Below are positions 46,977 to 60,557 of a stretch of 64,000 nucleotides of DNA, in pieces. Under the pieces are notes generated by a model that had not been told where the DNA came from, made no database searches, and saw nothing but the letters and a program-made list of their open reading frames with translations. The position numbers and the translations under genes were made by a program. Source of the DNA: a virus (taxonomy: Duplodnaviria > Heunggongvirae > Uroviricota > Caudoviricetes); the IMG/VR virus record IMGVR_UViG_3300044557_000292, positions 259,388 to 323,387 of that record; one strand, given 5' to 3'. The first letter of the stretch is position 1, and each line of letters begins with the position of its first letter.

Positions 46977-47097
46977 CGGCCTGCAGGATACTTCTCATGC
47001 AGCATGTCTAGAATGATCCATCAGATTGATGGCTGCTAACCTTCAGCATACTTCTCTATGTTCCCTATTCATCCAATATACGATTACAAGTTTACGG

Positions 47098-47169
47098 TTG
47101 CCTGAGAAGGACTCGAACCTCCAGTATCCCCGTCCAGGGCGGGGCGCGTTGCCATTGCGCTATCAGGCA
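47098..47169 (-). tRNA. tRNA-Gln(CTG), C33
   Basis: Cloverleaf; CCCCG-CCCTGGA-CGGGG. Confidence 0.8.
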
Positions 47170-47347
47170 ATAAAATGGGCGGCTGGTTCCATGCAGCCGG
47201 CCTTACGCCGGCCCATGGGGGTACTCAATGGATATGATCCATTCGTTGACCACCAGCACCCCACGATCATGGTTATCTTCAATCGCCATGATCGTGTTTC
47301 GCAGAATCCTGCATCATGTTGAAGACCACGATGCTATCAACTGTTAG

Positions 47348-47431
47348 CGGATGATGCGGGAGTCGAACCCGCCACGGTGTTACCCGAACCTCATTAGCAG
47401 TGAGGCGCTTTAACCGCTCAGCCTACCATCC
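47348..47431 (-). tRNA. tRNA-Ser(GCT)
   Basis: Long V-arm, G73, loop CTGCTAA. Confidence 0.92.
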
Positions 47432-47684
47432 ATACGCACTTCATATCAATTGCCGGAGTAAACCAGCAGTATCATTATAACTCTTGCAGCCCGATCGTGT
47501 CAACCCCATCAGAATCATGCGAGAAACCTGCCATGACCTCAGCCTCATGAGCATCGGTCTTACCGGCAGACCCTCCCCTGCTGATGGTGAAGCAGATGGA
47601 ATCATGGCGGTCGGAATTTCCTCACCAATTCCTCCTGAGTTTTATGATTACCCAACCCAGTGATGTGGACTCATCGTTACTCTC

Positions 47685-47855
47685 CTACTTCCTGCCGGGA
47701 TGAATAGGATGATCAGTGCTCCCAATAATCGCCGTGAGACGTGGAGCAGGTGTGAAGCCATCCATGAACGCATTCAGGCGCACCCTGGAGTCCTCAAGCT
47801 CTTTCCTCGTGAGGGGACCACGGTCAATCACGTAACTCTTGTCTATGCTACTCAT
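47685..47855 (-). CDS. small hypothetical protein (56 aa)
   Basis: RBS GGAGG, MSSIDKSYVIDRGP. Confidence 0.5.
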   Translation of the reverse strand: MSSIDKSYVIDRGPLTRKELEDSRVRLNAFMDGFTPAPRLTAIIGSTDHPIHPGRK

Positions 47856-47895
47856 TTTCCCGTCCTCCATCGTTTCAATGAATAATTGCATGGAG

Positions 47896-47968
47896 TGGAA
47901 GCGACGGGGATCGAACCCGCTTCCTCCTGCGTGCAAGGCAGGTGTCCTACCATTAGGACCTCGCCCCC
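47896..47968 (-). tRNA. tRNA-Ala(TGC)
   Basis: G3-U70, loop CTTGCAC. Confidence 0.92.
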
Positions 47969-48011
47969 ATTTGTGGAATACATGGACACAGTGCTATATC
48001 CATGCATCTAG

Positions 48012-48096
48012 CGGATGATGGGGGATTCGAACCCCCGGTGGTGTTACCCACTCCTGTTTTCTAGACAGGTGCACTAAACCGCTATGCGAATCATCC
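48012..48096 (-). tRNA. tRNA-Ser(AGA)
   Basis: Long V-arm, G73, loop CTAGAAA. Confidence 0.9.
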
Positions 48097-48097
48097 G

Positions 48098-48170
48098 AGC
48101 CAGCAATCGGTTTCGAACCGATGACCTTCTCATTACAAGTGAGATGCTCTACCATCTGAGCTATGCTGGC
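48098..48170 (-). tRNA. tRNA-Thr(TGT)
   Basis: Loop CTTGTAA. Confidence 0.93.
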
Positions 48171-48190
48171 AATTTTATGAAGTGATCCTT

Positions 48191-48548
48191 GAAGGCGGCC
48201 TGTAGCCACGGTTCTGTCCACATGATGACGAATAGGATCATCATGTTGTACCATCATCCATCTACTCCCGCTACCTGTCCTTATAACGATCGAATAAATC
48301 TAGACGTTCTGCGGTTTCACCGGGACTGGCTTGCCAAGGTTCCCCTCACGAGGATTAACCCACGATTTCTTACATCGTGCTTTTCACCCTTACCTGTGAT
48401 TCCTTATGGAATCCATCGGCGGTATGGTCTCTGCGGCGCTATCACTACTCTCACGGGCGGTGGGATTACCCCACGTCCCTATTCTATGGTGCCGTGAACT
48501 TCCTCTGAAAGAACGTCGTGTTCTACCAGCGATGATCCAGCTGCCTTC
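48191..48548 (-). ncRNA. rnpB: RNase P RNA (type A-like, P18 apparently absent)
   Basis: P1 GAAGGC/GCCTTC; GAGGAAGTTCACGG pairing with ACAGAACCGTGGCTA (P4); GATAGCGCCGCAGAGA..ACCGCC; GGTAAGGGTGAAA; AGATGGATGAT (P2). Confidence 0.88.
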
Positions 48549-48598
48549 AAAATGTTACGAGCTAACCCAATAAAAATTCGAGCAATCACGTATCATCG

Positions 48599-48668
48599 TG
48601 CTCATAATCGGAATCGAACCGATAACAATATACCCATATGGGAATAAAACCACCAGGTGAGCTAATAT
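48599..48668 (-). pseudogene. tRNA remnant
   Basis: Intact T-arm ATCGG-TTCGATT-CCGAT, partial acceptor, no usable D or anticodon arm. Confidence 0.45.
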
Positions 48669-48670
48669 TT

Positions 48671-49132
48671 TTAGACTAATAATGATGACAATTCCGTTAC
48701 CATTAACTCTAGTGTATGACGCCTTTCATTCATAAGAAACGAATTATTGACCTCATTACCATGATTATCAAATGATACCGATTGGTCCCACATGACCCAA
48801 TCATCCTTGTACTTGTTAATATCATTGATAAGTTCATTAGCAAGATATCTACAAGTTCTTAAACCCTCATAATCCATAAGATCATGGGTCAACAGGCCAT
48901 CATCAATGCTCGTTGATACGGAGTAAAGAATGCCATCAAAATCAAGGAATCCTACCGAATATCCCTCCGCGTCAAGACTTACATTCAAATGAACGTCATC
49001 CTGATTAGCGGTAAGAACATCGATAAAATATTGAAGCAAGATTATAGGTACGTCATCAGTATAACTCACACTGCCTACACGCTTGTTATTAATAACAAGA
49101 TCAGCGTACCCAGAACTTGGCTTTGATAACAA
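48671..49132 (-). CDS. hypothetical protein (AT-rich insert)
   Basis: 153 aa, RBS AAGGAG, TTG start. Confidence 0.75.
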   Translation of the reverse strand: MLSKPSSGYADLVINNKRVGSVSYTDDVPIILLQYFIDVLTANQDDVHLNVSLDAEGYSVGFLDFDGILYSVSTSIDDGLLTHDLMDYEGLRTCRYLANELINDINKYKDDWVMWDQSVSFDNHGNEVNNSFLMNERRHTLELMVTELSSLLV

Positions 49133-49169
49133 AACGTTCTCCTTAACTATATCTCCCTATATCGTGAGG

Positions 49170-49240
49170 AGCGGTCGACGGGAATCGAACCCGCATCATC
49201 TCACAGGCAATGAGACGCCTTACCATTGGGCTACGACCGC
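49170..49240 (-). tRNA. tRNA-Gly(GCC)
   Basis: U73, loop TTGCCTG. Confidence 0.9.
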
Positions 49241-49496
49241 GTGAAAACCTAGCCAGTCCCCGGAGTGATCATGCATAATCAGACCAGGGGGACGGCTAGG
49301 AACTAAAATGTCGGCCATCATGGATGGGAAGATCCTCGCCTAATTGGAAATACCATAGCGATTGATGTCTTCATGACTGCTAACCGGGCGATCCCCATGA
49401 CGCAACAGAATCCTCAGGGCTAGGCGCATCCACGCCTAGTCCTACTCCCCCATTCGGGAACTGCACGAGCATCACGCCTGCAAGAAGTGACCGACG

Positions 49497-49571
49497 TGCT
49501 TCCAACAGGATTCGAACCTGTGATCTCCTCCGTGTAAAGGAGGCGCCTTAGGCCAACTAGGCTACAGAAGC
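49497..49571 (-). tRNA. tRNA-Val(TAC)
   Basis: Loop TTTACAC. Confidence 0.92.
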
Positions 49572-49576
49572 AAGAT

Positions 49577-49620
49577 GTGTACAAGCGTGTACAAATAAGA
49601 TCGTGTACAAGCGTGCATAA
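49577..49620. repeat. GTGTACAA direct repeats (3 exact + 1 variant)
   Basis: At 49577, 49587, 49603, 49613. Confidence 0.7.
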
Positions 49621-49645
49621 TCCTATCCGCGTACTGGACGCGTGA

Positions 49646-49810
49646 TCAATCAACCCTAGAATCTTTATCAGGGTCTTTATCCTTCAGGGTCTTCATGAAG
49701 GCGATAGAGGAGTCAACCAGTGAGTTCATCTTACGCTCAGTAGAATTCCTAGGGTGAGCGACCCTGGTATAACCGGGAATAAGCTTCCTATCCGTTGGGT
49801 TCTTACCCAT
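49646..49810 (-). CDS. small hypothetical protein (54 aa)
   Basis: RBS GGAGG, MGKNPTDRKLIPG. Confidence 0.55.
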   Translation of the reverse strand: MGKNPTDRKLIPGYTRVAHPRNSTERKMNSLVDSSIAFMKTLKDKDPDKDSRVD

Positions 49811-49857
49811 ATCAGCCTCCAAATCCTGTGATTGTGATCCTATGTATGCTTGTTGCG

Positions 49858-49933
49858 TAGCGGGGGCGCGATTCGAACGCGCGATCTCTTGATTATGGGT
49901 CAAGCGAGGACAGCCGAGCTCCTCTACCCCGCA
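49858..49933 (-). tRNA. tRNA-Met(CAT), initiator-like acceptor, C33
   Basis: U1:U72 mismatch, CTTGA-CCCATAA-TCAAG. Confidence 0.85.
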
Positions 49934-49935
49934 AG

Positions 49936-50008
49936 TGCTTTCAACAGGACTCGAACCTGTGACCTATTCCGTGTGATGGAAGCGCGCTGCCATCTGCGCC
50001 ATGAAAGC
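49936..50008 (-). tRNA. tRNA-Val(CAC)
   Basis: Loop ATCACAC. Confidence 0.88.
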
Positions 50009-50220
50009 ATAAGTGGACGAGACTGCCTCTCCTTATGTCTTATCCATAATGCACCGTGCGTGATCATAAAACCCCCACGGGAGAGACGTGCTGACTGCTG
50101 TGGAGCATCAATGATCACAGCCTGTTATCACTGATCATCACCCCAATGGAGAACAACTCCCGTTATCTCAGGGACTGTTGCCCTCCACCAGTTACGACAA
50201 TGATCAATGGATGCTCTGCG

Positions 50221-50291
50221 AGCGGATGACGGGAATCGAACCCGCGTATCTTCCATGGGAGGGAAGCGCCTTACCATTGGGCTACATCCGC
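50221..50291 (-). tRNA. tRNA-Gly(CCC)
   Basis: U73, loop CTCCCAT. Confidence 0.92.
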
Positions 50292-50484
50292 AGCGCCAGG
50301 ATCTTACGTGTCCTGGCAGGAACACTCCAGACTCCATACTCCACCTCGAGGTCAGTATTTCCACCAGCCCCTACAGGAGTGCTGTCACGACTGCCCTCAC
50401 CGTCAACCACGTATCGGTTACAGGCTGGGGGGGGGAGTGCAGCTGCCCTAAACGTCTAGCTATAATAGAACAAACCAGACATCG

Positions 50485-50555
50485 AGGGGATGACGGGAGC
50501 CGAACCCGCGTAACCTGCTTGGAGGGCAGGCGCACTACCGTTATGCTACATCCCC
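50485..50555 (-). tRNA. tRNA-Gly(TCC), C33
   Basis: U73, loop CCTCCAA. Confidence 0.88.
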
Positions 50556-50683
50556 ATGTATCCTGAAACCATCACCGTGGCATGCTCAAGATGGACGAAG
50601 GGTGTTCAGGACTGCACACCCTCTGTTTCCTTATCCCCCTATTGCGAGGTGAAATCACGATGATGACAAAAGATTTATGTCAA

Positions 50684-51261
50684 TTATCTGTGAGGGTTAG
50701 ATCTTTCAGATTGTAATTTACGAAGGCATTCTTTGCTACAAGATTTTCTAACCTTCCTTGATGTATAAGAAAACTCACGCCCACACGCTTCACAAACGCT
50801 AACTCTACTACGTTTTTTGAGCGTATTCAATCTTCTGCATTCAAAGTAATTAACAGAAGTACGACTCACAAAACCAGTACCGTTCAATGGAACATTGCTG
50901 GATGAAGTTTACGCATCGATTCTGAAGTTTTCTGTCTAGTTTTACTACTTTGAGACCAAGTTCTCGTAAGACTATTAGGAATTTGCCCGTAGAATAATGG
51001 CTTAAGAGTTACAAACCATTTCATCTCTAGAAAATCCTTAATCCTATTGGAATTCTCGCATTGTTCAAGAATTTGAAATCTAAGAGCGTGAGGATCTCCA
51101 CCGTGTCTATTAAACCACTTTATAAATTCCTTACGATTATGATTACCAGACTTCAAACCCTTTAAGTGAGCTTTCCATCGTTCTTGAATATCCTTAGATT
51201 GACCAACGTAAAGACACGCTCCGTTGTAAGAATCAAAAATTGCGTAAATCCCACAAGCCAT
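50684..51261 (-). CDS. GIY-YIG homing endonuclease split in two frames (51261..50884 and 50887..50684)
   Basis: CGIYAI..LYVGQS..R, NUMOD3-like SSKTRQKTSES; CxxC..CS..C Zn finger in -1 frame. Confidence 0.75.
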
Positions 51262-51344
51262 TGCTTATTACCACCTTAATGTTTTAAGAAACAAACGTTA
51301 AGATATCATTAGTAATGAAAATCAATCCTCTCAAGAGGATATCG

Positions 51345-51415
51345 TACCCCATGATTGAGTTGAACAATCTTAAGATGTTTATAAGACATCCTTGCGCTAC
51401 CGGCGACAATGGGGT
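51345..51415 (-). tRNA. tRNA-Ile(TAT), weak D-arm
   Basis: ACCCCAT/ATGGGGT, GATGT-CTTATAA-ACATC, GATTG-TTCAACT-CAATC. Confidence 0.7.
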
Positions 51416-51427
51416 GAATGTCCACAA

Positions 51428-51527
51428 TATGGGTTCACCGTGATTAATCACGCCGTGAGCATGAGGACTAGGGTAAGGATAACCTAACCCTCACCTTGAC
51501 GGCAATTGGAATCACGGTGAACCCATA
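51428..51527 (-). ncRNA. candidate 100-nt rod-like RNA
   Basis: Perfect 18-bp terminal stem plus nested GCCGT/ACGGC, GTGAGG/CCTCAT, TAGG/CCTA. Confidence 0.45.
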
Positions 51528-51656
51528 ATTAATAGATATAGGAGGTTTCTCATGACTGATCAGATTCAATGCTGCCACAATGATTCCCATGCAATGGAAT
51601 CATTCCACTGATCCATCATGACCGATCCGGGGAAATGATCAAAACCCGGATCAGCG

Positions 51657-51731
51657 TAGCCATATCGGGGCTCGAACCCGAATTCTCTTCATTGAAGGTG
51701 AAGTGAGATAAACCAGTTACTCTATATGGCC
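51657..51731 (-). tRNA. tRNA-Glu(TTC), C33
   Basis: Loop CCTTCAA; 5' end overlaps stop of upstream endonuclease. Confidence 0.9.
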
Positions 51732-52861
51732 CTTCTAGTTCTCCCTAGCTTCCTAATAGGAACACCAAGAAAATTTAATCTATTCTCTACAGTAGTATGA
51801 GAAATTCCTAATTGTTCAGCAATTGCGTCCATACTCATTTCCTTTATAGAATAACATTTCTGAATTTCATCATCTAGGTTATTTGCTATTCCATATCTAC
51901 CAAGTTGAGCACAAATTCGTGAACAATATGTTTTATCTTTAACTTTTCTTCTAAAGATTGTAAAATGTTTTCCGCAATAATCACAAACATAATGGTATCC
52001 ATCTTTAGGCGTTTTGTGTATTTCTTGAAGAAGCAATCCGTGTTCTTTTAAACATCTTCTCACATGATTCCTACTGATGTGAAGTTTCTTGGCTGTGTCA
52101 TATGTACTGATTCCAGATTTATAGGTATCAATGATAATATCCTCAATACTATCAACTTCTTCATGATAACATTCATCTGCCTTTCTTGTTTTTGGATTTA
52201 TTCTATTGTCGCAAGAAACATTATTGCGTTTCAAGAATTTATCTAAAGATCCTCGACTGATATGAAGTTTTAATGATATATCGCGTATGGCAAAACCAGA
52301 CCGATAAAGTTCGTTAATAGTATTTTCAATACCATCAATTTCGTCATGATAATGCTTTTCAGCTCGTTTCTTAATTTCTTCAGCTCCAAGACTGATTTCG
52401 GGGTCCAATCTATTAGGCCAAGGAGCACAGATAGCATGATTCATAAGACATTCACCAATATTACGGCCATATTTTATCAGTAATGTTTCCATCACGTCAA
52501 GATCTGTTTTAAACCACGCATAAGCAATGAATGTTTTAATAACATCACCCTCACTATTGGAATTAATGTGCTCCTTAACATCCCTACCACTACTCTTATA
52601 ACGACGCCAACCAGGATTGCCGCTATTGTGCTTATCTTTACTATAATAATCACAAGCTAACTTGCGCTGACCTATGTATGTCTTGCCATCAGACTTGGTT
52701 GTTATCAGATAAATATAACCGTATGGAGTATCATGCGGATCATGCTCAGTCTTAATCTCGTCAGACTTCAACCTGAACATGGTTCGTAGTCGCTCTACGC
52801 GTTCATGCAATGGTAATGATTCCATACGATATATGGCACCAATTAGTATCAAGAATCGCAC
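51722..52861 (-). CDS. GIY-YIG (Seg-like) endonuclease with HTH repeats and Zn finger
   Basis: YGYIYLIT..KTYIGQR, three HTH-like repeats, CDYC..CSRIC; start uncertain. Confidence 0.85.
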   Translation of the reverse strand: MRFLILIGAIYRMESLPLHERVERLRTMFRLKSDEIKTEHDPHDTPYGYIYLITTKSDGKTYIGQRKLACDYYSKDKHNSGNPGWRRYKSSGRDVKEHINSNSEGDVIKTFIAYAWFKTDLDVMETLLIKYGRNIGECLMNHAICAPWPNRLDPEISLGAEEIKKRAEKHYHDEIDGIENTINELYRSGFAIRDISLKLHISRGSLDKFLKRNNVSCDNRINPKTRKADECYHEEVDSIEDIIIDTYKSGISTYDTAKKLHISRNHVRRCLKEHGLLLQEIHKTPKDGYHYVCDYCGKHFTIFRRKVKDKTYCSRICAQLGRYGIANNLDDEIQKCYSIKEMSMDAIAEQLGISHTTVENRLNFLGVPIRKLGRTRRAI

Positions 52862-52887
52862 AAATTATGACCCTTTAGGGTCATAAG

Positions 52888-52961
52888 CGCCCCGAACAGG
52901 ATTCGAACCTGCAACCTACTGGGTAGAAACCAGCCGCTCTGATCCATTGGGCTACCGAGGC
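52888..52961 (-). tRNA. tRNA-Arg(TCT), acceptor stem imperfect
   Basis: Loop TTTCTAC; 3' acceptor strand one base short. Confidence 0.8.
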
Positions 52962-53058
52962 ATTAGGATTGGCGTGGTCGCGGATAAGACGATTATTCCA
53001 CATTTTCATTTTTCAGATTCAGCCGATCCTCTATATAATCAACCGGCTACCAATCCAG

Positions 53059-53132
53059 TGCCCGCAGTCGGATTCGAACCGGCAACCTTCTCCTTAGGGG
53101 GGAGACGCTCTATCCAGTTGGGCTATGCGGGC
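53059..53132 (-). tRNA. tRNA-Arg(CCT), C33
   Basis: Loop CCCCTAA. Confidence 0.88.
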
Positions 53133-53309
53133 ATGATGCAGACGTGATGAACGCGATCAGGAAGAATCTTTTCCATCAGACCACCGACATGCATAAGAGT
53201 CGGGCGGGATTCGAACCCGCATCTCTTCCATTACGCGCTCACCGCGTCTGTGCTCGGGGATTCCGGAATCCCCGCTTGAAACCGCACGGTTGCAATCCAT
53301 GCGGCCAAG

Positions 53310-53392
53310 TGCCCCGAGCGGGAGTCGAACCCGCACTTCCGAGGAAAGTTCTTTTTAAGAGAACCGCGTATACCAATTCCAGCCATCGGGGC
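53310..53392 (-). tRNA. tRNA-Leu(TAA)
   Basis: V-arm present, loop CTTAAAA. Confidence 0.92.
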
Positions 53393-53492
53393 GTTGGATG
53401 AGTTTACCGACATCATTAGGTCTAAGTATAAACGCTATTCCATTATCAAGCATTTGTTCACATTCACACGGTCAACGTGGCGAACAGTATTC

Positions 53493-53521
53493 ATTATATC
53501 ACGGTGCTGCGTGCTTGACAA
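53493..53521 (-). promoter_or_regulatory. sigmaA-type promoter inside tRNA array
   Basis: TTGTCA-17 nt-TATAAT with TG extension. Confidence 0.65.
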
Positions 53522-53566
53522 CGGCGTGTCGCAATCCCCCGCTATAAGTTTTGAATAATGGTCAGA

Positions 53567-53637
53567 CGTGGAGACGGGATTCGAACCCGCGTATAATTGA
53601 ATTGCGGTCAATTGCCTAACCATTTGGCTACTCCACG
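53567..53637 (-). tRNA. tRNA-Cys(GCA), C33
   Basis: U73, loop CCGCAAT. Confidence 0.88.
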
Positions 53638-53638
53638 G

Positions 53639-53710
53639 TACGGGCAGATCGAGTTGAACGATCCTTGCTTCTGTATCAGAGAAGTGTACTCACCGATGTA
53701 CGATGCCCGC
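53639..53710 (-). tRNA. tRNA-Ile(GAT)
   Basis: CTTCT-CTGATAC-AGAAG, T-loop TTCAACT. Confidence 0.8.
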
Positions 53711-53762
53711 GTATTCTACTCATTCTGCTGTTCGCGTGTGAGCACGAGGAGCGTGCTCATCG

Positions 53763-53836: not shown

Positions 53837-53947
53837 TTACGAGATATAGACGGTCACGGCTGAGTCTACGATCAGTAAACATCCCCGCGGGCTGTGCGGC
53901 CACATGCCAGCGCTTCCTCCTATTGAAAGTCGCGCAAGCACCCACCG

Positions 53948-54019
53948 TGGATCCAACGAGAGTCGAACTCGCCACATCCTCCGTGCGGGGGAGGATCGCC
54001 ACCATCGGCATTTGGACCC
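53948..54019 (-). tRNA. tRNA-Ala(CGC), C33
   Basis: G3-U70, loop CCCGCAC. Confidence 0.85.
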
Positions 54020-54114
54020 ATAATAATGAATGTTATAATTGTGCTCGATTCGACATGCTGGTACGATGTACTAGAACCTCGATAGGGACCATAATGCTTC
54101 CATCATGATCCTCG

Positions 54115-54188
54115 TGCGAATGGATCGGCTTGAACGATTGACATCATCCTTATCAGGAATGCGCTCTAACCATCTGAGCTACATCCGC
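54115..54188 (-). tRNA. tRNA-Ile(GAT)
   Basis: Loop CTGATAA. Confidence 0.85.
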
Positions 54189-54219
54189 GAGCCTTATAAA
54201 TAGTTGAATAAGGAGTCAA

Positions 54220-54636
54220 TCAATTTGACAAACTTTTAATCGCGTTAATCACTTCTGTGCACTCCTTAACTTGTAATGATTCCACGCCATAACGATCAGC
54301 CACATTTTCAAGACGTGCTTCAAAGCTTACAAGATCCCCGCGTGAATCAACAGACATATCAGCCTTATTAAGGAGTATTCCTAACGTAGTATTCAGACCT
54401 TCCATCGTACCATGCGCTGCTACTTCTTTCCAGTGAACATAACCTTGGGATCTTAGCAAATCACCACCAATCTTAGCGTGAGTACGATTGTCCCCAATCA
54501 TGTACCCAAGATCATGCACCCATCCTAATAATGCTGCTTCTTGAGGATCAAGCCCATATTCTGATGCATGATTAAACATGTATTCTGCTACTCCTCGTGA
54601 GTGTGAAGCCCTAGTAGAATCAATAAAACTAATCAA
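54220..54636 (-). CDS. HD-domain phosphohydrolase (AT-rich insert)
   Basis: SHS, WVHDLG, HAKIG, AAHG, KAD. Confidence 0.85.
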   Translation of the reverse strand: MISFIDSTRASHSRGVAEYMFNHASEYGLDPQEAALLGWVHDLGYMIGDNRTHAKIGGDLLRSQGYVHWKEVAAHGTMEGLNTTLGILLNKADMSVDSRGDLVSFEARLENVADRYGVESLQVKECTEVINAIKSLSN

Positions 54637-54691
54637 TAATTCTCCTTATTAATAAATTGACACTCGAACGTACAAACCCATAACTAGGGTA

Positions 54692-54730
54692 CGTGCGGGG
54701 GAGGATCGCCACCAGCGGCATTTGGACCCA
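54692..54730 (-). pseudogene. 5' half of tRNA-Ala(CGC), duplicate of 53982..54020
   Basis: 38/39 identity, ends at the anticodon loop. Confidence 0.8.
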
Positions 54731-54760
54731 GGTAATGCTAACCGTATGGCTAGCATATCG

Positions 54761-54835
54761 TGCGGATGATGTGACTTGAACACATGACCTCATTCTTATC
54801 AGGAATGCGCTGCTAACCATCTGAGCTACATCCGC
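54761..54835 (-). tRNA. tRNA-Ile(GAT)
   Basis: Loop CTGATAA; paralogue of 54115..54188. Confidence 0.88.
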
Positions 54836-54883
54836 ATGTCTCATATAATGAATGACGGGCAGCAAGCCACGCCGATGATGGTC

Positions 54884-54975
54884 AGGTTCAACCCCTCTAC
54901 GCTGGGAATACCCGCGTTGTCAGACGCTTGCCCACTGAGCGCGGAGAGGTTCAACCCCTCTACGCTGGGAATACC
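54884..54975 (-). CRISPR. repeat-spacer-repeat mini-array, type I-E-like
   Basis: Two identical 29-nt repeats (minus GGTATTCCCAGCGTAGAGGGGTTGAACCT) and a 34-nt spacer. Confidence 0.5.
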
Positions 54976-55017
54976 TCCTAGGTCATCCGGGTACAATCAT
55001 CTACTCCCCTCACCACG

Positions 55018-55090
55018 AGCCAGCACCCGGAATCGGACCGGGGACCTTCTCATTACGAGTGAGACGCTCTACCATCTGAGCTATGCGGGC
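55018..55090 (-). tRNA. tRNA-Thr(CGT)
   Basis: Loop CTCGTAA, T-loop TCCGATT. Confidence 0.85.
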
Positions 55091-55267
55091 ATACACGATT
55101 TTATCCAGATCGTGAACTGGTTGGCGCGCCCTTAGTTAGATGCCGGTCAATCACTTCCACCAATTGTTAGCATCGTTCCCGCGAACAGCACGCGGACGCC
55201 ATCCCGCGTGACACTCACCCGAGTACGGTTCGGAGGTTGGGGCTGTGGACACTCCGATGGAGAGACG

Positions 55268-55341
55268 TGTTCGCAGCTGGATTTGGACCAGCGACCGCCT
55301 CCGTGTCAGGGAGGAACGCTACCGGACTGCGCCATGCGAAC
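55268..55341 (-). tRNA. tRNA-Val(GAC)
   Basis: Loop CTGACAC, T-loop TCCAAAT. Confidence 0.85.
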
Positions 55342-55403
55342 ATATGAGACCAAGACGCCTGATCCACAGGCAATCAACGATTGCCATGGACGTGGACGCG
55401 GAG

Positions 55404-55476
55404 AGCCAACAGATGGAATCGAACCATCGACCTTCTCATTACTGGTGAGACGCTCTACCAACTGAGCTATGCAGGC
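55404..55476 (-). tRNA. tRNA-Thr(AGT), C33
   Basis: Loop CCAGTAA. Confidence 0.85.
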
Positions 55477-55583
55477 AAGATGGACGGCTTGGGTGATCCC
55501 ATTTGCCGTCACGACTCGAAGCATGAACCCGCCAGTTCATGTTTCTCATCGTGACGGCCGCACTACTAGGAATACCGTCAATG

Positions 55584-55657
55584 TGCCTCCAGCCGGGTTC
55601 GAACCGGCGGCATCTTGTTTCGAAGACAAGCGCTCTGATCCGCTGAGCTATGGAGGC
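55584..55657 (-). tRNA. tRNA-Arg(TCG)
   Basis: Loop CTTCGAA. Confidence 0.9.
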
Positions 55658-55789
55658 AAGTAGTGATTGGCGAGGCGTGCAACCATGCTGCATCTGCGGA
55701 ATCGGACCGGTGCAGGAATACGGACTCGAGCCGTTACCCTTCGCCACGGGGCAACCAGCCCCAATCCTACCACACCGGGTAGGACGCAG

Positions 55790-55862
55790 TTCTCCCAATC
55801 GGTCTCGAACCGATGACACCCTGCTTAAGAGGCAGGTGCTCTACCATCTGAGCTATAGGAGC
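55790..55862 (-). tRNA. tRNA-Lys(CTT), G1:A72 mismatch
   Basis: Loop CTCTTAA. Confidence 0.87.
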
Positions 55863-55900
55863 ATTATCTCCCAAATCATCAATCACAATGACTGGAATTG

Positions 55901-55974
55901 GGTGACTGGAGGAACTCGAATCCTCGACCTGCTGAACCACAATCAGCCGCTCTAACCATCTGAGCTACAGCCAC
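55901..55974 (-). tRNA. tRNA-His(GTG)
   Basis: C73, loop TTGTGGT; base -1 is T. Confidence 0.9.
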
Positions 55975-55976
55975 AG

Positions 55977-56049
55977 CTCCCCGTGAAGGATTCGAACCTC
56001 CAACCTCTGCATTCAGAGTGCAGCGCACGGCCAAACATGCTGACGGGGA
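55977..56049 (-). tRNA. tRNA-Gln(CTG)
   Basis: U1-A72, G73, loop CTCTGAA. Confidence 0.9.
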
Positions 56050-56090
56050 ATATTAGGACTCATTGAGATTACTATTCTCAATGCTTCCAG

Positions 56091-56161
56091 CTGCCCACCA
56101 TGGATTCGAACCATGCTTGGAGGTACCAAAAGCCTCAGTCCTGCCAATAGACGAGTGGGCA
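56091..56161 (-). tRNA. tRNA-Gln(TTG)
   Basis: U1-A72, G73, loop TTTTGGT. Confidence 0.88.
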
Positions 56162-56422
56162 ATATGAAAATCCAGCTCTTAACGGAAGCTGGAATGAAGC
56201 TCTTAATATGCGAATCCGCACTAGACTATCGTTCTCAATGATTCCTAGTTTCTAGTATCATTGCGTCCATGAGCTACCGACGTCCAAGTGAATGGCGGTC
56301 AAGCACATGCGAGTACAGTGATCTCTATGATCACAAATGATGCTCACATTGGATTAACGCTTAACCAGATCCGCTGCAGTCCAGTTCGAGAGGCGGGCGT
56401 GGTGCGCACGCAAGCCGCCAAG

Positions 56423-56495
56423 TGCTCTCAGTGGGATTCGAACCCGCAGCCTCCTGTTCCGTAGACAGACGCTCTATCCGTTGAGCTATGAGAGC
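56423..56495 (-). tRNA. tRNA-Arg(ACG)
   Basis: Loop CTACGGA. Confidence 0.92.
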
Positions 56496-56528
56496 AAAAT
56501 AACAAAAACGACTCTAAAAGCCATTTCG

Positions 56529-56600
56529 TGCCCCATGGGAATTCTGCCATCCCGACCCGATGCTTAAAAGGCACCTGTTCTCCTTCTGAACTAATGAGGC
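56529..56600 (-). tRNA. tRNA-Lys(TTT), non-canonical T-arm
   Basis: Loop CTTTTAA; T-arm GGGATGGCAGAATTCCC. Confidence 0.75.
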
Positions 56601-56827
56601 AAATATAAGATTTGATGGAAGCATAGCCTGGTCATGGCTCCAATCCATGTTACCATCCCGTCACCATGATTACGATTGCTAGCATTACCGTCATCATGAT
56701 GGCTGCGAGTCACGTTCTATACGCTCATGGTCCGGAGTCTAACCGGATCCCATTGGAGACCTGCACTCCACTCTCGCACAGCTACGAGCCGCCCATCCTA
56801 TCCTCATAAGAGGTAAGGATCGCATCG

Positions 56828-56899
56828 TACGCCCGCCGGAACTTGAATCCGGTCCAGCGGTTTTGGAGACCATTATGCTTCCAATCACACTACAGACGA
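56828..56899 (-). tRNA. tRNA-Trp(CCA), degenerate stems
   Basis: Loop CTCCAAA. Confidence 0.75.
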
Positions 56900-56901
56900 C
56901 G

Positions 56902-56975
56902 TGCCCTCCACGGGATTCGAACCCGCACTGAACAGCTCCTAAGGCTGTTGCCTCTGCCAGTTGGGCTAAGAGGGC
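56902..56975 (-). tRNA. tRNA-Leu(TAG), short variable loop
   Basis: Loop CTTAGGA, 74 nt. Confidence 0.9.
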
Positions 56976-57174
56976 TTGAATGCGCAATAAATGGTGGGTT
57001 TATTGTCATCACCGGGACATTGACGCCACGCGTTCATCCAGAGCATTCGCTGGGGACAACCGGTCAGGCTTGGTGTTACGATTCTATCGTAACACACAAC
57101 TGCGAATCGTGATGATTGGCGTGTCTTAAGTGTGAGCAGGTGAGCCCCATCTGAGGGGATGATGCTCAAGCGCG

Positions 57175-57247
57175 TGGAACCGGGGGGAGTCGAACCCTCT
57201 ACCTCTTCCGTGCTGGGGAAGCGCTCTACCAGTTGAGCTACGGTCCC
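57175..57247 (-). tRNA. tRNA-Ala(AGC), C33
   Basis: G3-U70, loop CCAGCAC. Confidence 0.88.
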
Positions 57248-57248
57248 G

Positions 57249-57320
57249 CACGTCGGCAAGGAATCGAACCCTGATCGGGAGGTTTGGAAGCTCCTGTCCT
57301 TCCAGTTGGACGACCGACGC
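57249..57320 (-). tRNA. tRNA-Trp(CCA)
   Basis: G73, loop TTCCAAA. Confidence 0.87.
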
Positions 57321-57329
57321 ATGATGCGG

Positions 57330-57400
57330 ACAATGAGTAGGACTGTCGCGCCCGCCTGGCATGAAGCCAGGCAGCGGGTTAAACCCCGCTGTACTCATTG
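57330..57400 (-). ncRNA. non-canonical cloverleaf RNA with TCA anticodon
   Basis: 9-bp acceptor CAATGAGTA/TACTCATTG, 7-bp D stem, CCTGG-CTTCATG-CCAGG, 4-bp T stem, no V-arm. Confidence 0.55.
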
Positions 57401-57458
57401 CCCTGATATGATGATGTAGACGAGGTCACAGCCACCCTATCATTCGTCTACACCAGCG

Positions 57459-57538
57459 TGGTGCGTGAGGGACTCGAACCCCCGTACCCGAGAGAGCTGA
57501 TTTACAGTCAGCCGCATTTGCCGCTCTGCCAACGCACC
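57459..57538 (-). tRNA. tRNA-Tyr(GTA)
   Basis: V-arm, loop CTGTAAA. Confidence 0.92.
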
Positions 57539-57630
57539 ATGTGATCACCGCTGGGCTGCTGTGCTTCCACCCTGACCCTGTGACGATGACGGCGACCCGT
57601 GAGTACATTATATGCTCACACCGTCGCCAG

Positions 57631-57704
57631 TGCCGACAGTCCGGGTCGAACGGACAACCTCCGAGGCTTCAACTCGGCGCTCTTGCCAATTGAGCTATGA
57701 CGGC
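57631..57704 (-). tRNA. tRNA-Phe(GAA)
   Basis: Loop TTGAAGC. Confidence 0.9.
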
Positions 57705-57705
57705 G

Positions 57706-57788
57706 TGCATCCAGTCTGATTTGAACAGACATGCCTTATCGGCAATGGCTTCTGAAGCCATCGTGTATACCAGTTTCACCATGAATGC
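57706..57788 (-). tRNA. tRNA-Leu(CAG), long V-arm
   Basis: Loop TTCAGAA. Confidence 0.88.
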
Positions 57789-57930
57789 AAATGGCGGCTT
57801 CCCCGCCAGCACTGGTGTTCTCATCGAACGAGCAATGGCGTTGAACGGGCGCATCACAGACTGAACCTCATCCAACCGATGGGATTTTTACCAGACTGAA
57901 CCCTGGAGTGCCTTTGCCGTGGCTCCGCCG

Positions 57931-57995
57931 TAGTCTCAACAGGACTCGAACCTGATTCGTCTGACATGGGAGGCAGACGTACTACCAATGAGACA
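57931..57995 (-). pseudogene. D-armless tRNA-like RNA (CCC loop)
   Basis: GTCTCA/TGAGAC acceptor, 10-nt linker in place of D-arm, GTCTG/CAGAC stem, CAGG-TTCGAGT-CCTG. Confidence 0.55.
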
Positions 57996-58135
57996 TTTCT
58001 AAATTATGTAGACAATAGCATGAATGTGGGCGTTGCACCCACAGGGTCGCTATAGCATTCGGCTCGTTAGTGGTCACGACTAACCATGATAATCTTTACG
58101 ATTATGCTGCTAACTCAAAGCCTACTGATACTGCG

Positions 58136-58224
58136 CGGTTGATGAGGGATTCGAACCCCCGGTGGACGTTAATCCACGCTTGTTTAGTAGACAAGTGCCA
58201 TAAGCCAGACTCGGCCAATCAACC
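58136..58224 (-). tRNA. tRNA-Ser(ACT)
   Basis: Long V-arm, G73, loop CTACTAA. Confidence 0.9.
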
Positions 58225-58422
58225 ATATGATTGCTTGACGGACAATCATGAGGACAAAGCTCCGCGGAGCGCTCCGCCCACCGGCTAGGCCATCAACCCA
58301 GCGTAATGTGCGTCCCTGCTTGCAGATGCTGTCAGGATTCCTCATCTGCATGTCCATCCTCACAATAAGTCCTGTCATTATTGGATGGGCTGGCTAGATA
58401 CGTTGCCATATCCAGGGGCGCG

Positions 58423-58509
58423 CGGATGATGGGGGATTTGAACCCTCGGTGGTGTGACCCACTCCGTCTTTCGAGGACGGTGCACTAAACCAGACTATGC
58501 GAATCATCC
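58423..58509 (-). tRNA. tRNA-Ser(CGA)
   Basis: Long V-arm, loop CTCGAAA. Confidence 0.92.
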
Positions 58510-58545
58510 ATATGCTGATCATGTGGCCATTGGCAGCAAGATCCG

Positions 58546-58619
58546 TCCCTCGTATCGGCGACGATCCGATCACTCCCTGATTAAGAGTCAGGTGCTCTAC
58601 CAACATGAGCTAACGAGGG
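58546..58619 (-). tRNA. tRNA-Lys(CTT), atypical T-loop
   Basis: Loop CTCTTAA, T-loop ATCGTCG. Confidence 0.82.
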
Positions 58620-58620
58620 G

Positions 58621-58694
58621 TTGCGGAGAATGGATTCGAACCATTGACTTCGTGGGTATGAGCCACGCGAGCTACCGAACTGCTCTACTCCGCG
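58621..58694 (-). tRNA. initiator tRNA-fMet(CAT)
   Basis: C1:A72 mismatch, CGTGG-CTCATAC-CCACG. Confidence 0.9.
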
Positions 58695-58768
58695 TGTCCC
58701 CTATGGGATTCGAACCCATACTAGACGGCTCCTTAGGCCGACGCCTCTACCAATTGGGCTAAAGGGAC
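58695..58768 (-). tRNA. tRNA-Leu(AAG), short variable loop
   Basis: Loop CTAAGGA, 74 nt. Confidence 0.87.
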
Positions 58769-58855
58769 ATGATACGTGGATGCGATCATGATCGTCACCA
58801 GTCACGCATCCACGATAGGGCCAACTGGTGACAACCGTCGCTGTCATCGTGTGCC

Positions 58856-58946
58856 CGGTTCTCAGGGGGATTCGAACCCACGCTCGCTGGGAATGACCCC
58901 TCGCACCACTTTATCGGCGGCTGCTACCATTGCATCATTGAGAACC
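58856..58946 (-). ncRNA. class II tRNA-like RNA with 8-bp acceptor, G73, loop CGATAAA
   Basis: GGTTCTCA/TGAGAACC, T-loop TTCGAAT, long V-arm. Confidence 0.55.
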
Positions 58947-58949
58947 ACG

Positions 58950-59035
58950 TGCCCTCACCCGGATTCGAACCGAGAGCCCCATCACGGGAAGACGGGTTTG
59001 AGCCGTCCGCGTCTACCAATTCCAGCCATGAGGGC
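58950..59035 (-). tRNA. tRNA-Leu(CAA)
   Basis: Long V-arm, loop CTCAAAC. Confidence 0.92.
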
Positions 59036-59191
59036 AATTTGCTTAATGCTCTGTAAGGAGAATCACTTATGATCATCAGGACTGCAAGCGCAAGCCGTAT
59101 GCGCTCACCGGGTGACTATCCCCCGCCAAGGGAAGAATTGCCGCCAACAATTCTTGTCATCATCCCCACGGTTGTCCATTCCCGTGGTAAG

Positions 59192-59265
59192 TACTCTCCA
59201 TGGGATTCGAACCCATGCTAGACGGTCCCTGAAACCGCCTCCTCTGCCAATCGGGCTAGGAGAGC
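59192..59265 (-). tRNA. tRNA-Leu(CAG), short variable loop
   Basis: Loop TTCAGGG, 74 nt. Confidence 0.87.
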
Positions 59266-59322
59266 ATAACGTGCCGTCAATCCCACCGTGGTTTGGGGAG
59301 TTGAACCATTGACGGCACATAG

Positions 59323-59396
59323 TAGCCTCATCGGGACTCGAACCCGAAGTCTCATCCTTGAGAGGGATGCGAGGTGACCAGTTACTCTATGAGGCC
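59323..59396 (-). tRNA. tRNA-Glu(CTC)
   Basis: Loop CTCTCAA. Confidence 0.92.
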
Positions 59397-59397
59397 G

Positions 59398-59482
59398 CGG
59401 ATGATGAGGGATTCGAACCCCCGGTGGTGTTACCCACTCTTGTTTTCAAGACAAGTGCACTCGACCGCTATGCGAATCATCC
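59398..59482 (-). tRNA. tRNA-Ser(TGA)
   Basis: Long V-arm, loop CTTGAAA. Confidence 0.92.
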
Positions 59483-59581
59483 AAATATTGTATGCAGTAA
59501 GAGCTAGGAGCCCCCGCCGCGCCGGGCCACAGCCTTACCGGCTTGTCCAGCCCTCGAGTAAGCATCCTTATCGAGCCCGCG

Positions 59582-59653
59582 CGACCACGACGGGAATCGG
59601 ACCCGCTCTAGCTTGCTCGACAGGCAAGTGTCCAACCGGAGGACCTCGTGGCC
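59582..59653 (-). tRNA. tRNA-Asp(GTC)
   Basis: G73, loop CTGTCGA, T-loop TCCGATT. Confidence 0.85.
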
Positions 59654-59728
59654 ATAATGATGCAGACAGCATTACGTGATGAAAACAATGTCAGAACTTT
59701 CATCGGAATCTGTCCACATTCACCTACG

Positions 59729-59803
59729 CTCCCTGTACTAGAGTCGAACTAGTTGCCTCTCGATTAACAGTCGAGCGCAGCCGCCGAAGGCTGCTCACAG
59801 GGA
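59729..59803 (-). tRNA. tRNA-Asn(GTT)
   Basis: U1-A72, G73, loop CTGTTAA. Confidence 0.9.
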
Positions 59804-59809
59804 ATAATA

Positions 59810-60250
59810 GATGGGCGTTTAACGTGCGCCCATCATGCACGGCATGTTTTTCTATCCGACTGCTCGGACTGCTTAGACCAGCTCACCACTTGGACATGAC
59901 TGACAGCATGCGCTGTCAACCGTCACCGCGGATTGCCTATAGGGAACATCTGAAGAAGTATGTTTATTGTCTACCGGCGCTCGACCTTCACAACGAGCTT
60001 GGTACCCGGCTCACGGATTATACGTACTGGGACACAATGTGACCCCGGGTAGCATCTTGAGGACAAGACGCGACCACACCTCGCTTTCTCCGTGCGAGAT
60101 CCAGAATACTGGCGCTCCATCATGCAGACGAGTTGACTAGACCCGTATGGTCTCCTGACCAAGCGCGATAATTCTTTAACATTCCGGTACCGTGGCCGTC
60201 GCATTGCTTCCTCATCTGGAGTTGCACCAGACCTCATTATTAGATTATCA
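59810..60250 (-). ncRNA. candidate large structured ncRNA
   Basis: About 440 nt without tRNA or credible CDS, at least 9 hairpins. Confidence 0.45.
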
Positions 60251-60315
60251 GACCATCCTCACCATGATTCCATGCGGTCAAGCATGTCCACAGGGTGACC
60301 AGATGACGGTCATCG

Positions 60316-60389
60316 TCGGGATGACAGGATTTGAACCTGCGGCATCTTGCTCCCAAAGCAAGCGCGCTACCAAGCTGCGCTACATCCCG
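60316..60389 (-). tRNA. tRNA-Pro(TGG)
   Basis: C1-G72, loop TTTGGGA. Confidence 0.93.
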
Positions 60390-60484
60390 AAATATTAAGT
60401 TATGTCACTACGCTGGACGGTTTCCCGTTGAGCGCGGCACATCCAATGATAACACACCCGTTAGGGTACGCGGTCAGCGGCGTG

Positions 60485-60557
60485 TCGGGATGGCGGGGAT
60501 CGAACCCGCTGTCTCCTGCTCCCGAAGCAGGCGGATTACCTTTCCTCCCTCATCCCG
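60485..60557 (-). tRNA. tRNA-Pro(CGG)
   Basis: C1-G72, loop TTCGGGA. Confidence 0.9.

What the first reader, a model, noticed from the sequence alone, without database searches (positions are those of the whole stretch)
47098..60557. Mobile-element tRNA array for all 20 amino acids with its own RNase P RNA and tmRNA
Seen: about 52 readable tRNAs on one strand covering all 20 amino acids, none with a complete encoded CCA, an rnpB inside the array, and an ssrA at 7800-8153. Established: tRNA arrays and tmRNAs occur on actinobacterial phages and plasmids. Inference: adding RNase P RNA gives an unusually complete RNA supply, maturation and rescue kit on a transfer-gene-bearing element, possibly resistant to host RNA-cleaving defences.
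Basis: partly seen in the sequence, partly recalled or inferred. Interest (0 to 1): 0.8.

Follow-up and report, generated by a model that had tools for sequence, protein, structure and literature searches.

The report
Mobile-element tRNA array with own RNase P
A 420-kb extrachromosomal element, probably of an actinobacterium, carries 51 tRNA genes for all 20 amino acids plus its own RNase P ribozyme gene, a tmRNA and a CCA-adding enzyme. I found no published report of an RNase P RNA gene on a phage or plasmid.

Summary
On the minus strand of 47096-60557 lie 50 ARAGORN tRNAs plus one Rfam-only tRNA-Lys(UUU), covering all 20 amino acids. None encodes CCA: C74 is encoded in 49 of 50, C75 in 3 of 50. 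A full-length class-A RNase P RNA sits inside the array at 48187-48548 (148 bits, cut-off 100). A tmRNA lies at 7797-8153.

The replicon is a closed 419,707-bp IMG/VR record with no rRNA motifs, no rnpA and no smpB. IF3 and a CCA-adding enzyme are encoded just upstream of the array.

A diverged relative, a 350-kb JGI contig with about 45-70% protein identity, keeps the same order: clamp loader, IF3, CCA enzyme, tRNA array. It also keeps a homologous P18-less RNase P RNA, with three double compensatory changes in catalytic helix P4. The ribozyme gene is therefore under selection.

Best reading: the element's ribozyme, together with host RnpA, cuts the polycistronic CCA-less precursors, and the CCA enzyme finishes the 3' ends.

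Whether the element is a phage or a conjugative megaplasmid is unresolved. I found no virion genes, but I did find T4SS-like genes.

This scan has noted phage-encoded rnpB before on other DNA (62 notes in at least 53 genomes). I found no paper on it.

The parts
47096..60557 (-). tRNA array: 51 tRNA genes for all 20 amino acids. All lack encoded CCA (N73-C74 only). 11 of 51 junctions have spacers of 2 nt or less.
48187..48548 (-). Class-A RNase P RNA gene (rnpB-like), 362 nt. P4 is altered but base-paired, P18 is absent, and a P19-like hairpin is inserted. The L15 GGU and the S-domain motifs are intact. Its 3' end lies 16 nt before tRNA-Thr(UGU).
7797..8153 (-). tmRNA (ssrA) with tag AAYNTSDFALAA; its 3' end encodes ACC, not ACCA
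56529..56600 (-). tRNA-Lys(UUU), found by Rfam only
50884..51261 (-). GIY-YIG homing-endonuclease-like ORF inside the array
51722..52861 (-). SegE-like GIY-YIG plus HTH homing-endonuclease-like ORF inside the array
54220..54636 (-). 138-aa HD-domain ORF inside the array; role unknown
48671..49132 (-). 153-aa acidic ORF (pI 4.2) just upstream of the RNase P RNA. It matches no family and is not RnpA-like.
47474..47503 (-). Perfect sigma-70-like promoter match (12 of 12) inside the array, upstream of tRNA-Ser(GCU)
53493..53521 (-). Sigma-70-like promoter match (11 of 12, extended -10) upstream of tRNA-Leu(UAA)
39332..42070 (-).

Best explanation
This is a translation-supply module on a giant extrachromosomal element, probably of an actinobacterium. 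The module comprises IF3, a CCA-adding enzyme, 51 tRNA genes with a class-A RNase P ribozyme gene embedded among them, and, 39 kb away, a tmRNA. The array is transcribed from several internal promoters as polycistronic precursors. The element's RNase P RNA is co-transcribed with the tRNAs and probably binds the host's RnpA protein. It cuts at each tRNA 5' end, where U(-1) is strongly preferred. Where two tRNAs abut, that single cut also leaves the upstream tRNA ending in N73-C74. The element's CCA-adding enzyme then adds C75-A76. The same ribozyme would mature the tmRNA 5' end. Shown: the genes, their arrangement, the CCA-less C74-only design, the U(-1) bias, and conservation of the ribozyme with compensatory changes. 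Inferred: expression, the partnership with host RnpA and SmpB, catalytic activity, and the benefit to the element (extra or private processing capacity for a sudden load of about 50 foreign pre-tRNAs).
For: RF00010 matches full length at 148.4 bits against a cut-off of 100. Nucleotides invariant across 12 element-borne RNase P RNAs are kept: GAGGAA, GGTAAGGGTGAAA, GTAAGA, GGCAAGCC, the J5/15 As, the L15 GGT and ACAGAA.

The relative L421 (JGI contig, 349.7 kb) shares the order 837-aa ORF, clamp loader (69% identity), IF3 (55%), CCA enzyme (61%), tRNA array starting Pro-Pro-Asn. It holds a homologous P18-less RNase P RNA at 166.5 bits. P4 differs between the two by three double compensatory changes, and RNAalifold counts 17 compensatory pairs.

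U(-1) occurs in 35 of 51 tRNAs here and in 28 of 37 in L421. C74 is encoded in 49 of 50 and 37 of 37, C75 in 3 of 50 and 3 of 37. 11 of 51 junctions have spacers of 2 nt or less, and the ribozyme ends 16 nt before tRNA-Thr. In L421 the ribozyme follows tRNA-Cys directly.

A CCA-adding enzyme (PolyA_pol, RNA-binding and HD domains) is encoded 5 kb upstream of the array. RNase P RNA inside tRNA arrays recurs in at least 15 other IMG/VR contigs.
Against: The element encodes no rnpA and no smpB, so it depends on host proteins. Two near-universal P4 positions are changed: consensus AAAGUC reads AAGUUC here. The Rfam score is about 120 bits below that of other element-borne copies, so activity could be reduced or altered. 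Only one close relative was found, so covariation rests on two sequences. Five Micrococcales megaplasmids with similar tRNA arrays and CCA-type enzymes have no RNase P RNA, so the ribozyme is not required for such arrays.
Confidence: 0.6

Rival explanations
1. The RNase P RNA is a captured host gene that is decaying or neutral: a passenger picked up with tRNA genes, with no role for the element.
For: Its score is low relative to other copies (148 against 261-288 bits). Near-universal P4 nucleotides are changed and P18 is lost. Comparable megaplasmid arrays lack it.
Against: It is full length, and all other invariant core and S-domain nucleotides are intact. A relative with only about 45-70% protein identity retains it in the array. 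The P4, P12, P13, P14 and P16/17 changes between the two are compensatory. The same arrangement recurs in at least 15 other IMG/VR arrays.
Confidence: 0.12
2. The RNA is functional but not as a general pre-tRNA processor. It might act as a decoy that titrates host RnpA to shut down host tRNA maturation, or as a specialised enzyme for another substrate such as the tmRNA or a structured RNA of the element.
For: The catalytic helix P4 is altered. There is no rnpA on the element, so it must compete for the host protein.
Against: The element's own 51 tRNAs need 5' processing. They show the U(-1) preference, and the C74 that pairs with the retained L15 GGU, as expected of RNase P substrates. The S-domain that reads the tRNA elbow is kept.
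Confidence: 0.13
3. The rnpB and ssrA are host chromosomal genes brought in by misassembly, or the contig is a fragment of a small cellular genome.
For: The record carries many cell-like genes: gyrase, NAD ligase, a PBP, IF3 and RNR.
Against: The record closes on itself with an 89-bp terminal repeat at 419,707 bp and has no rRNA motifs. The ribozyme lies between tRNAs on the same strand, with GC 0.51 against 0.495 for the element. An independent assembly from another sample has the same arrangement.
Confidence: 0.03

Closest known systems
Bacterial class-A RNase P RNA (Rfam RF00010; E. coli M1 RNA, rnpB)
   Same: Full-length match covering P1-P17, including the S-domain J11/12 and GUAAGA motifs, the L15 GGU that binds the tRNA 3' end, and the ACAGAA/GAGGAA flanks of P4.
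   Different: It is encoded on a mobile element inside a tRNA array. P18 is absent and a P19-like hairpin is inserted. P4 reads AAGUUCACGG/CCGUGGCU instead of AAAGUCCGGG/CCCGGCUU. No rnpA lies on the same replicon.
Actinobacterial megaplasmids with tRNA arrays and tmRNA: Bifidobacterium breve pMP7017 (PMC10832533), Curtobacterium pCPAA3, and Arthrobacter-group plasmids of 400-607 kb
   Same: They are giant extrachromosomal elements of Actinomycetota with large tRNA arrays. pMP7017 and pCPAA3 carry a tmRNA, and pMP7017 a CRISPR array. The five Micrococcales plasmids carry CCA-type nucleotidyltransferases and mostly CCA-less, C74-only tRNA genes. Our element shares T4SS-like genes with plasmids.
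   Different: None of the five megaplasmids tested has an RF00010 match. The pMP7017 paper does not mention RNase P. Their CCA enzymes are only 26-33% identical to ours.
tRNA arrays, tmRNAs and CCA-adding enzymes of huge phages (Al-Shayeb et al. 2020, PMC7162821; Iyer et al. 2021, PMC7824862)
   Same: Large tRNA complements, tmRNA, CCA-adding enzyme, initiation factors and CRISPR arrays on elements over 200 kb.
   Different: Neither paper mentions RNase P. No GenBank phage record matched either RNase P RNA query, apart from two contigs labelled Acinetobacter phage MD-2021a that I did not examine further. No virion genes were recognised on our element.
Phage T4 tRNA gene cluster
   Same: From my own knowledge: T4 has co-transcribed, abutting tRNAs, some lacking encoded CCA, matured by RNase P and the CCA-adding enzyme. 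Its tRNA region also holds Seg-type GIY-YIG homing endonucleases; compare the SegE-like ORFs here.
   Different: T4 relies wholly on host RNase P and the host CCA-adding enzyme. This element brings its own ribozyme RNA and its own CCA enzyme.

Membership tests
Bacterial class-A RNase P RNA (RF00010) | Covariance-model score at or above the curated gathering score, over the full model | tested here: met
   148.4 bits against 100, model positions 1-367 of 367
Bacterial class-A RNase P RNA (RF00010) | Helix P4 (long-range pairing of the CR-I and CR-V strands, with a bulged U) can form | tested here: met
   AAGUUCACGG pairs with CCGUGGCU. There are three double compensatory differences from the relative L421.
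Bacterial class-A RNase P RNA (RF00010) | Near-universal core nucleotides of P4 (consensus AAAGUC) | tested here: inconclusive
   The sequence reads AAGUUC, so two consensus positions are changed, each compensated on the 3' strand. All other core blocks are invariant.
Bacterial class-A RNase P RNA (RF00010) | Specificity domain (P7-P14, J11/12 GGUAAGGGUGAAA) and the L15 GGU for the tRNA 3' end | tested here: met
   Both are present and aligned
Bacterial class-A RNase P RNA (RF00010) | Endonucleolytic 5' maturation of pre-tRNA | not testable with these tools
   Needs an in-vitro cleavage assay or 5'-end mapping
tmRNA (RF00023) | tRNA-like domain plus an internal tag reading frame ending ...ALAA with a stop | tested here: met
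   70.5 bits against 47; ARAGORN tag AAYNTSDFALAA*
tmRNA (RF00023) | SmpB partner encoded on the same replicon | tested here: not met
   No PF01668 match in the 420 kb. Host SmpB would be needed. This is not a defining feature of the RNA itself.
Huge phage (tailed, Caudoviricetes) | Large terminase, major capsid, portal and tail genes | tested here: not met
   No match to PF03237, PF17289, PF05065, PF04860 or PF04984. No clear structural PHROG hit in about 165 ORFs; the only structural-category hits were partial C-terminal or lysin-domain matches to minor tail, virion structural and tape-measure families, and the one 'terminase' hit is an AAA_10 ATPase. Divergent virion genes cannot be excluded. 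A rIIB-like PHROG hit (9e-30) and the IMG/VR listing favour a phage.
Conjugative megaplasmid of Gram-positive type | Coupling protein, VirB4-class ATPase, cell-wall hydrolase, VirB6/TrbL-like membrane protein, partition genes | tested here: inconclusive
   Found: a TraG/TrwB-like 912-aa protein; an AAA_10 ATPase with homologues on 325 plasmids against 3 'phage' records; Phage_lysozyme2 and CHAP domains, T2SSE/T2SSF, and ParA/ParB-like genes. There is only a TrbL-like lead for the 2370-aa protein. A relaxase was not searched for.
Mobile-element tRNA array | Dense same-strand cluster of 20 or more tRNA genes on a non-chromosomal replicon | tested here: met
   51 tRNAs in 13.5 kb; closed 420-kb record without rRNA motifs

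The most novel reading that the evidence does not exclude
A lineage of giant actinobacterial extrachromosomal elements maintains a private RNase P ribozyme whose near-universal P4 core nucleotides have been rewritten by compensatory change. Together with an element-encoded CCA-adding enzyme, it matures a complete, CCA-less tRNA set largely independently of the host's rnpB. This would be one case of a wider, unpublished phenomenon: RNase P RNA genes embedded in tRNA arrays of phages and other mobile elements.
Probability: 0.5. Interest if true: 0.8.

Novelty: new variant of a known kind. Interest (0 to 1): 0.7.

Why it matters
RNase P RNA is treated as a core cellular ribozyme. A maintained copy on a mobile element means that such elements can import tRNA maturation capacity as well as tRNAs. 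Natural variants with compensated changes at near-universal P4 positions are ready-made test cases for how the catalytic helix tolerates change. The C74-only gene design paired with an element-encoded CCA enzyme suggests a two-enzyme maturation route for abutting tRNAs that can be tested in vitro. It also warns that rnpB and ssrA cannot be taken as proof that a contig is chromosomal.

Tried and rejected
1. Close relatives through single-protein scans of IMG/VR, using the CCA enzyme and the T4CP-like protein: none confirmed.

2. Pattern GAGGAAGTTCNNGGCNCC in viral, genome and metagenome collections: too unspecific. 

3. Lineage-specific patterns, the P18-less junction and a J-region 20-mer, in IMG/VR: no hits.

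4. blastn of our ribozyme against GenBank phages and PLSDB: no match. The tmRNA gave only a 32-nt match to pCPAA3.

5. PLSDB 'plasmid' hits to a canonical RNase P RNA are Mb-scale chromids or mislabelled chromosome pieces. Tsukamurella 'plasmid 18' carries infA, panB and NAD synthase.

6. Hunt for virion genes with Pfam and PHROG families, Walker-motif candidates, PDB sequence search and Atlas look-alikes: no capsid, terminase or portal was found. The 742-aa candidate is NrdE. The 407-aa 'terminase' PHROG hit is an AAA_10 plasmid-type ATPase.

7. phrog_34613 and phrog_32699 also match cellular control genomes, so they say nothing about phage identity.

8. The 153-aa ORF beside the ribozyme as a protein cofactor: rejected. 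It is acidic (pI 4.2), matches no family, and is not at that position in L421.

10. The genome search could not reach the records behind L421 and L424.
Full report
**Observation.** ARAGORN finds 50 tRNA genes, all on the minus strand, between 47096 and 60557, and a tmRNA at 7798-8153 with the tag AAYNTSDFALAA. Infernal against Rfam finds a full-length class-A RNase P RNA at 48187-48548(-), at 148.4 bits against a gathering score of 100, covering model positions 1-367. It finds the tmRNA at 70.5 bits against 47, and one more tRNA at 56529-56600. The anticodon loop of that extra tRNA reads UUU, so it is tRNA-Lys. All 20 amino acids are covered. One gene (58856-58946) has an undetermined anticodon.

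**The replicon.** The window is bases 259388-323387 of a 419,707-bp IMG/VR record with a terminal repeat, rated 100% complete. I find an exact 89-bp end repeat, GC of 0.495, and no tRNA, tmRNA or RF00010 match elsewhere in the record. No conserved 16S, 23S or 5S motif is present, even with three mismatches allowed.

**What accompanies the array.**
- The record has no rnpA (PF00825) and no smpB (PF01668).
- It does encode a 536-aa CCA-adding enzyme at record positions 325027-326637(-). That is about 1.6 kb beyond the window end and about 5 kb upstream of the first tRNA. Precomputed Pfam domains on its near-identical database copy are PolyA_pol, its RNA-binding domain and HD.
- An IF3 gene lies immediately upstream of the CCA gene.
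- Inside the array are two GIY-YIG homing-endonuclease-like ORFs (one SegE-like), a small HD-domain ORF, and an acidic 153-aa ORF with no family match.
- Elsewhere the element has RNA ligase and polynucleotide kinase PHROG matches.

**Design of the tRNA genes.** I located N73 by acceptor-stem pairing. C74 is encoded in 49 of 50 genes, C75 in 3 of 50, and CCA in none. The base before each tRNA is T in 35 of 51 cases, and AT or TT in 31. From my own knowledge of the enzyme, U(-1) is the base that bacterial RNase P prefers.

Eleven of 51 junctions have spacers of 2 nt or less. There, one cut at the 5' end of the downstream tRNA leaves the upstream tRNA ending in N73-C74. The ribozyme gene ends 16 nt before tRNA-Thr(UGU). 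Several sigma-70-like promoter matches lie inside the array, including a 12-of-12 match at 47503-47474. This suggests several transcription units, though these are consensus matches only.

**The ribozyme.** The alignment to RF00010 shows the following:
- P1-P3, the S-domain with GGUAAGGGUGAAA and GUAAGA, GGCAAGCC, the J5/15 adenosines and the L15 GGU are all intact.
- A 25-position deletion removes P18.
- A 29-nt insertion that can form a 9-bp hairpin lies between P2 and the 3' strand of P4.
- The P4 strands read GAGGAAGUUCACGGC and ACAGAACCGUGGCUAC, against the consensus GAGGAAAGUCCGGGC and ACAGAACCCGGCUUA.

The P4 helix still forms, as A-U, G-C, U·G, a bulged U, then C-G, A-U, C-G, G-C, G-C. 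Two near-universal positions have changed, each compensated on the other strand.

**A relative shows selection.** The CCA enzyme has a 61%-identical homologue on a 349.7-kb JGI contig, locus L421. That contig has the same gene order as ours:
- an 837-aa ORF (50% identity);
- a clamp loader (69%);
- IF3 (55%);
- the CCA enzyme (61%);
- a 270-aa ORF (44%).

A tRNA array follows that opens Pro(CGG), Pro(UGG), Asn, as ours does. Thirty-eight tRNAs lie in the 8 kb held. Directly after tRNA-Cys in that array lies a 320-nt RNase P RNA at 166.5 bits. It aligns with ours over most of its length and also lacks P18.

Its P4 is AAAUUCGGGG/CUCCGGUU. Relative to ours there are three double compensatory changes (A-U to G-C, G-C to A-U, G-C to C-G) and one single change (G·U to G-C). 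RNAalifold on the pair counts 17 pairs kept through changes on both sides, including in P12, P13, P14 and P16/17. With only two sequences this is not a statistic. It is, however, the pattern of a maintained structured RNA and not of a decaying one.

L421 has the same gene design: C74 in 37 of 37, C75 in 3 of 37, and U(-1) in 28 of 37.

**How general the feature is.**
- A conserved S-domain pattern hits 64 IMG/VR contigs.
- Eleven large ones (94-481 kb) carry full RF00010 matches of 261-288 bits, most of them among tRNAs.
- In 15 of the 64 contigs, at least 5 tRNAs lie within 3 kb of the ribozyme.
- P4 covaries among these copies. The AAAG above the bulged U is kept in all except the L021/L035 pair, L421 and ours.
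- Our copy is the most divergent. blastn does not link it to any phage or plasmid record.
- No GenBank phage record matched either RNase P RNA query, apart from two contigs labelled Acinetobacter phage MD-2021a, which I did not examine further.
- PLSDB hits are chromids or mislabelled chromosome pieces.
- This scan has noted phage-encoded rnpB before: 62 notes in at least 53 genomes, each reporting no paper.
- My own literature searches found no report either. Al-Shayeb 2020, Iyer 2021, a 2026 jumbo-phage review and the pMP7017 study do not mention RNase P. The library is open-access only, so this is absence of evidence.

**Host.** The best named relatives of the CCA enzyme (51-54% identity) come from Bifidobacterium, Cellulomonas, Isoptericola and other Actinomycetota. 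The C74-only design is also typical of tRNA arrays on five Micrococcales megaplasmids: C74 in 147 of 150, CCA in 21 of 150. All five encode a CCA-type enzyme, at 26-33% identity to ours. None has an RF00010 match. An actinobacterial host is therefore likely. The ribozyme is what sets this lineage apart from the known megaplasmid kits, such as pMP7017 with 20 tRNAs, a tmRNA and a CRISPR array.

**Phage or plasmid.** IMG/VR lists the record as a virus.

Phage-like genes on it:
- a rIIB PHROG match at 9e-30;
- UvsX-like, PhoH, NrdD and ThyX genes;
- Seg-like endonucleases.

Against a phage:
- I found no large terminase, capsid, portal or sheath with five Pfam families, and no clear structural PHROG hit in about 165 ORFs.
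- The only structural-category PHROG hits were partial matches of a C-terminal or lysin domain to minor tail, virion structural and tape-measure families.
- The single 'terminase' PHROG hit is an AAA_10 ATPase, with homologues on 325 Gram-positive plasmids against 3 'phage' records.

Plasmid-like genes:
- a TraG/TrwB-like coupling protein, which matched no phage record;
- T2SSE and T2SSF;
- a protein with Phage_lysozyme2 and CHAP domains;
- ParA-like and ParB-like genes;
- a 2370-aa protein whose nearest named Atlas clusters include TrbL/VirB6-like proteins; this is a lead only.

I put this at roughly even odds, leaning slightly toward a conjugative megaplasmid-like element. 'Mobile element' is the safe term, and the reading of the RNA kit does not depend on the answer.

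**Mechanism.** The best-supported reading is that the element's ribozyme is co-transcribed with the tRNAs and assembled with host RnpA. It then cuts the polycistronic, CCA-less precursors at each 5' end. At abutting pairs the same cut creates the N73-C74 3' end. The element's CCA enzyme adds CA. The tmRNA encodes ACC but not the final A, and it would be matured the same way and work with host SmpB.

The benefit is probably processing capacity for a sudden load of about 50 foreign tRNA genes, or independence from host rnpB transcription. Protection from host RNA-cleaving defences remains an untested idea. The full tRNA set and the RNA-repair genes fit that theme, but nothing ties the ribozyme to it.

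Noticed in passing
window 48011-58768; L421 15279-19604: The array uses A34 anticodons where bacteria normally use G34: Ser-AGA, Thr-AGU, Ala-AGC, Leu-AAG and Ser-ACU, beside the usual Arg-ACG. No GGA, GGU, GGC or GAG isoacceptors are present. The relative L421 shares Ala-AGC, Leu-AAG and Thr-AGU, so the set is conserved. This implies a wobble-inosine system with a broader range than bacterial TadA.
   Followed up: partly
L427-L431 (plasmids CP018784.1, NZ_CP126274.1, NZ_CP104273.1, NZ_CP061722.1, NZ_CP053545.1): Five Micrococcales megaplasmids of 400-607 kb hold very dense tRNA arrays, 150 tRNAs in five 12-kb stretches. C74 is encoded in 147 of 150 but CCA in only 21. Each plasmid encodes a CCA-type nucleotidyltransferase. 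None has an RNase P RNA.
   Followed up: partly
L011-L074 (IMG/VR contigs): 15 of the 64 IMG/VR contigs that match a class-A S-domain motif have the RNase P RNA embedded among at least 5 tRNAs. Examples are L011 (36 tRNAs) and L040 (35 tRNAs). P4 covaries among these copies.
   Followed up: partly
whole record G000 (e.g. 163949-171061, 223038-224261; window 39332-42070): The IMG/VR 'virus' record shows a Gram-positive-type conjugation or pilus gene set: a T4CP-like protein, an AAA_10 ATPase, T2SSE/F, a CHAP-lysozyme protein and a TrbL-like lead. No virion genes were recognised, so its classification as a phage is doubtful.
   Followed up: partly
window 58856-58946; L421 14544-14621: ARAGORN reports a tRNA-like gene with a 2-base anticodon in our array, and one with a 4-base anticodon (ACUG) at a similar early position in the relative's array. 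These could be odd anticodon loops or mis-folds.
   Followed up: no
record 326665-327147 and 327294-328478 (beyond the window end): IF3 and a clamp-loader gene sit directly upstream of the CCA-enzyme gene. They are syntenic with L421 and also with a 489-kb ENA contig (L424), which has no tRNAs in the 10 kb after its CCA gene.
   Followed up: partly
L426 (NZ_LR134460.1): Tsukamurella tyrosinosolvens 'plasmid 18' (360 kb) carries rnpB next to infA, panB and NAD synthase. It looks like a chromosome piece filed as a plasmid.
   Followed up: partly
window 48220-48260: A 29-nt insertion in the ribozyme, between P2 and the 3' strand of P4, can form a 9-bp hairpin (P19-like). It is absent from the relative L421.
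   Followed up: no
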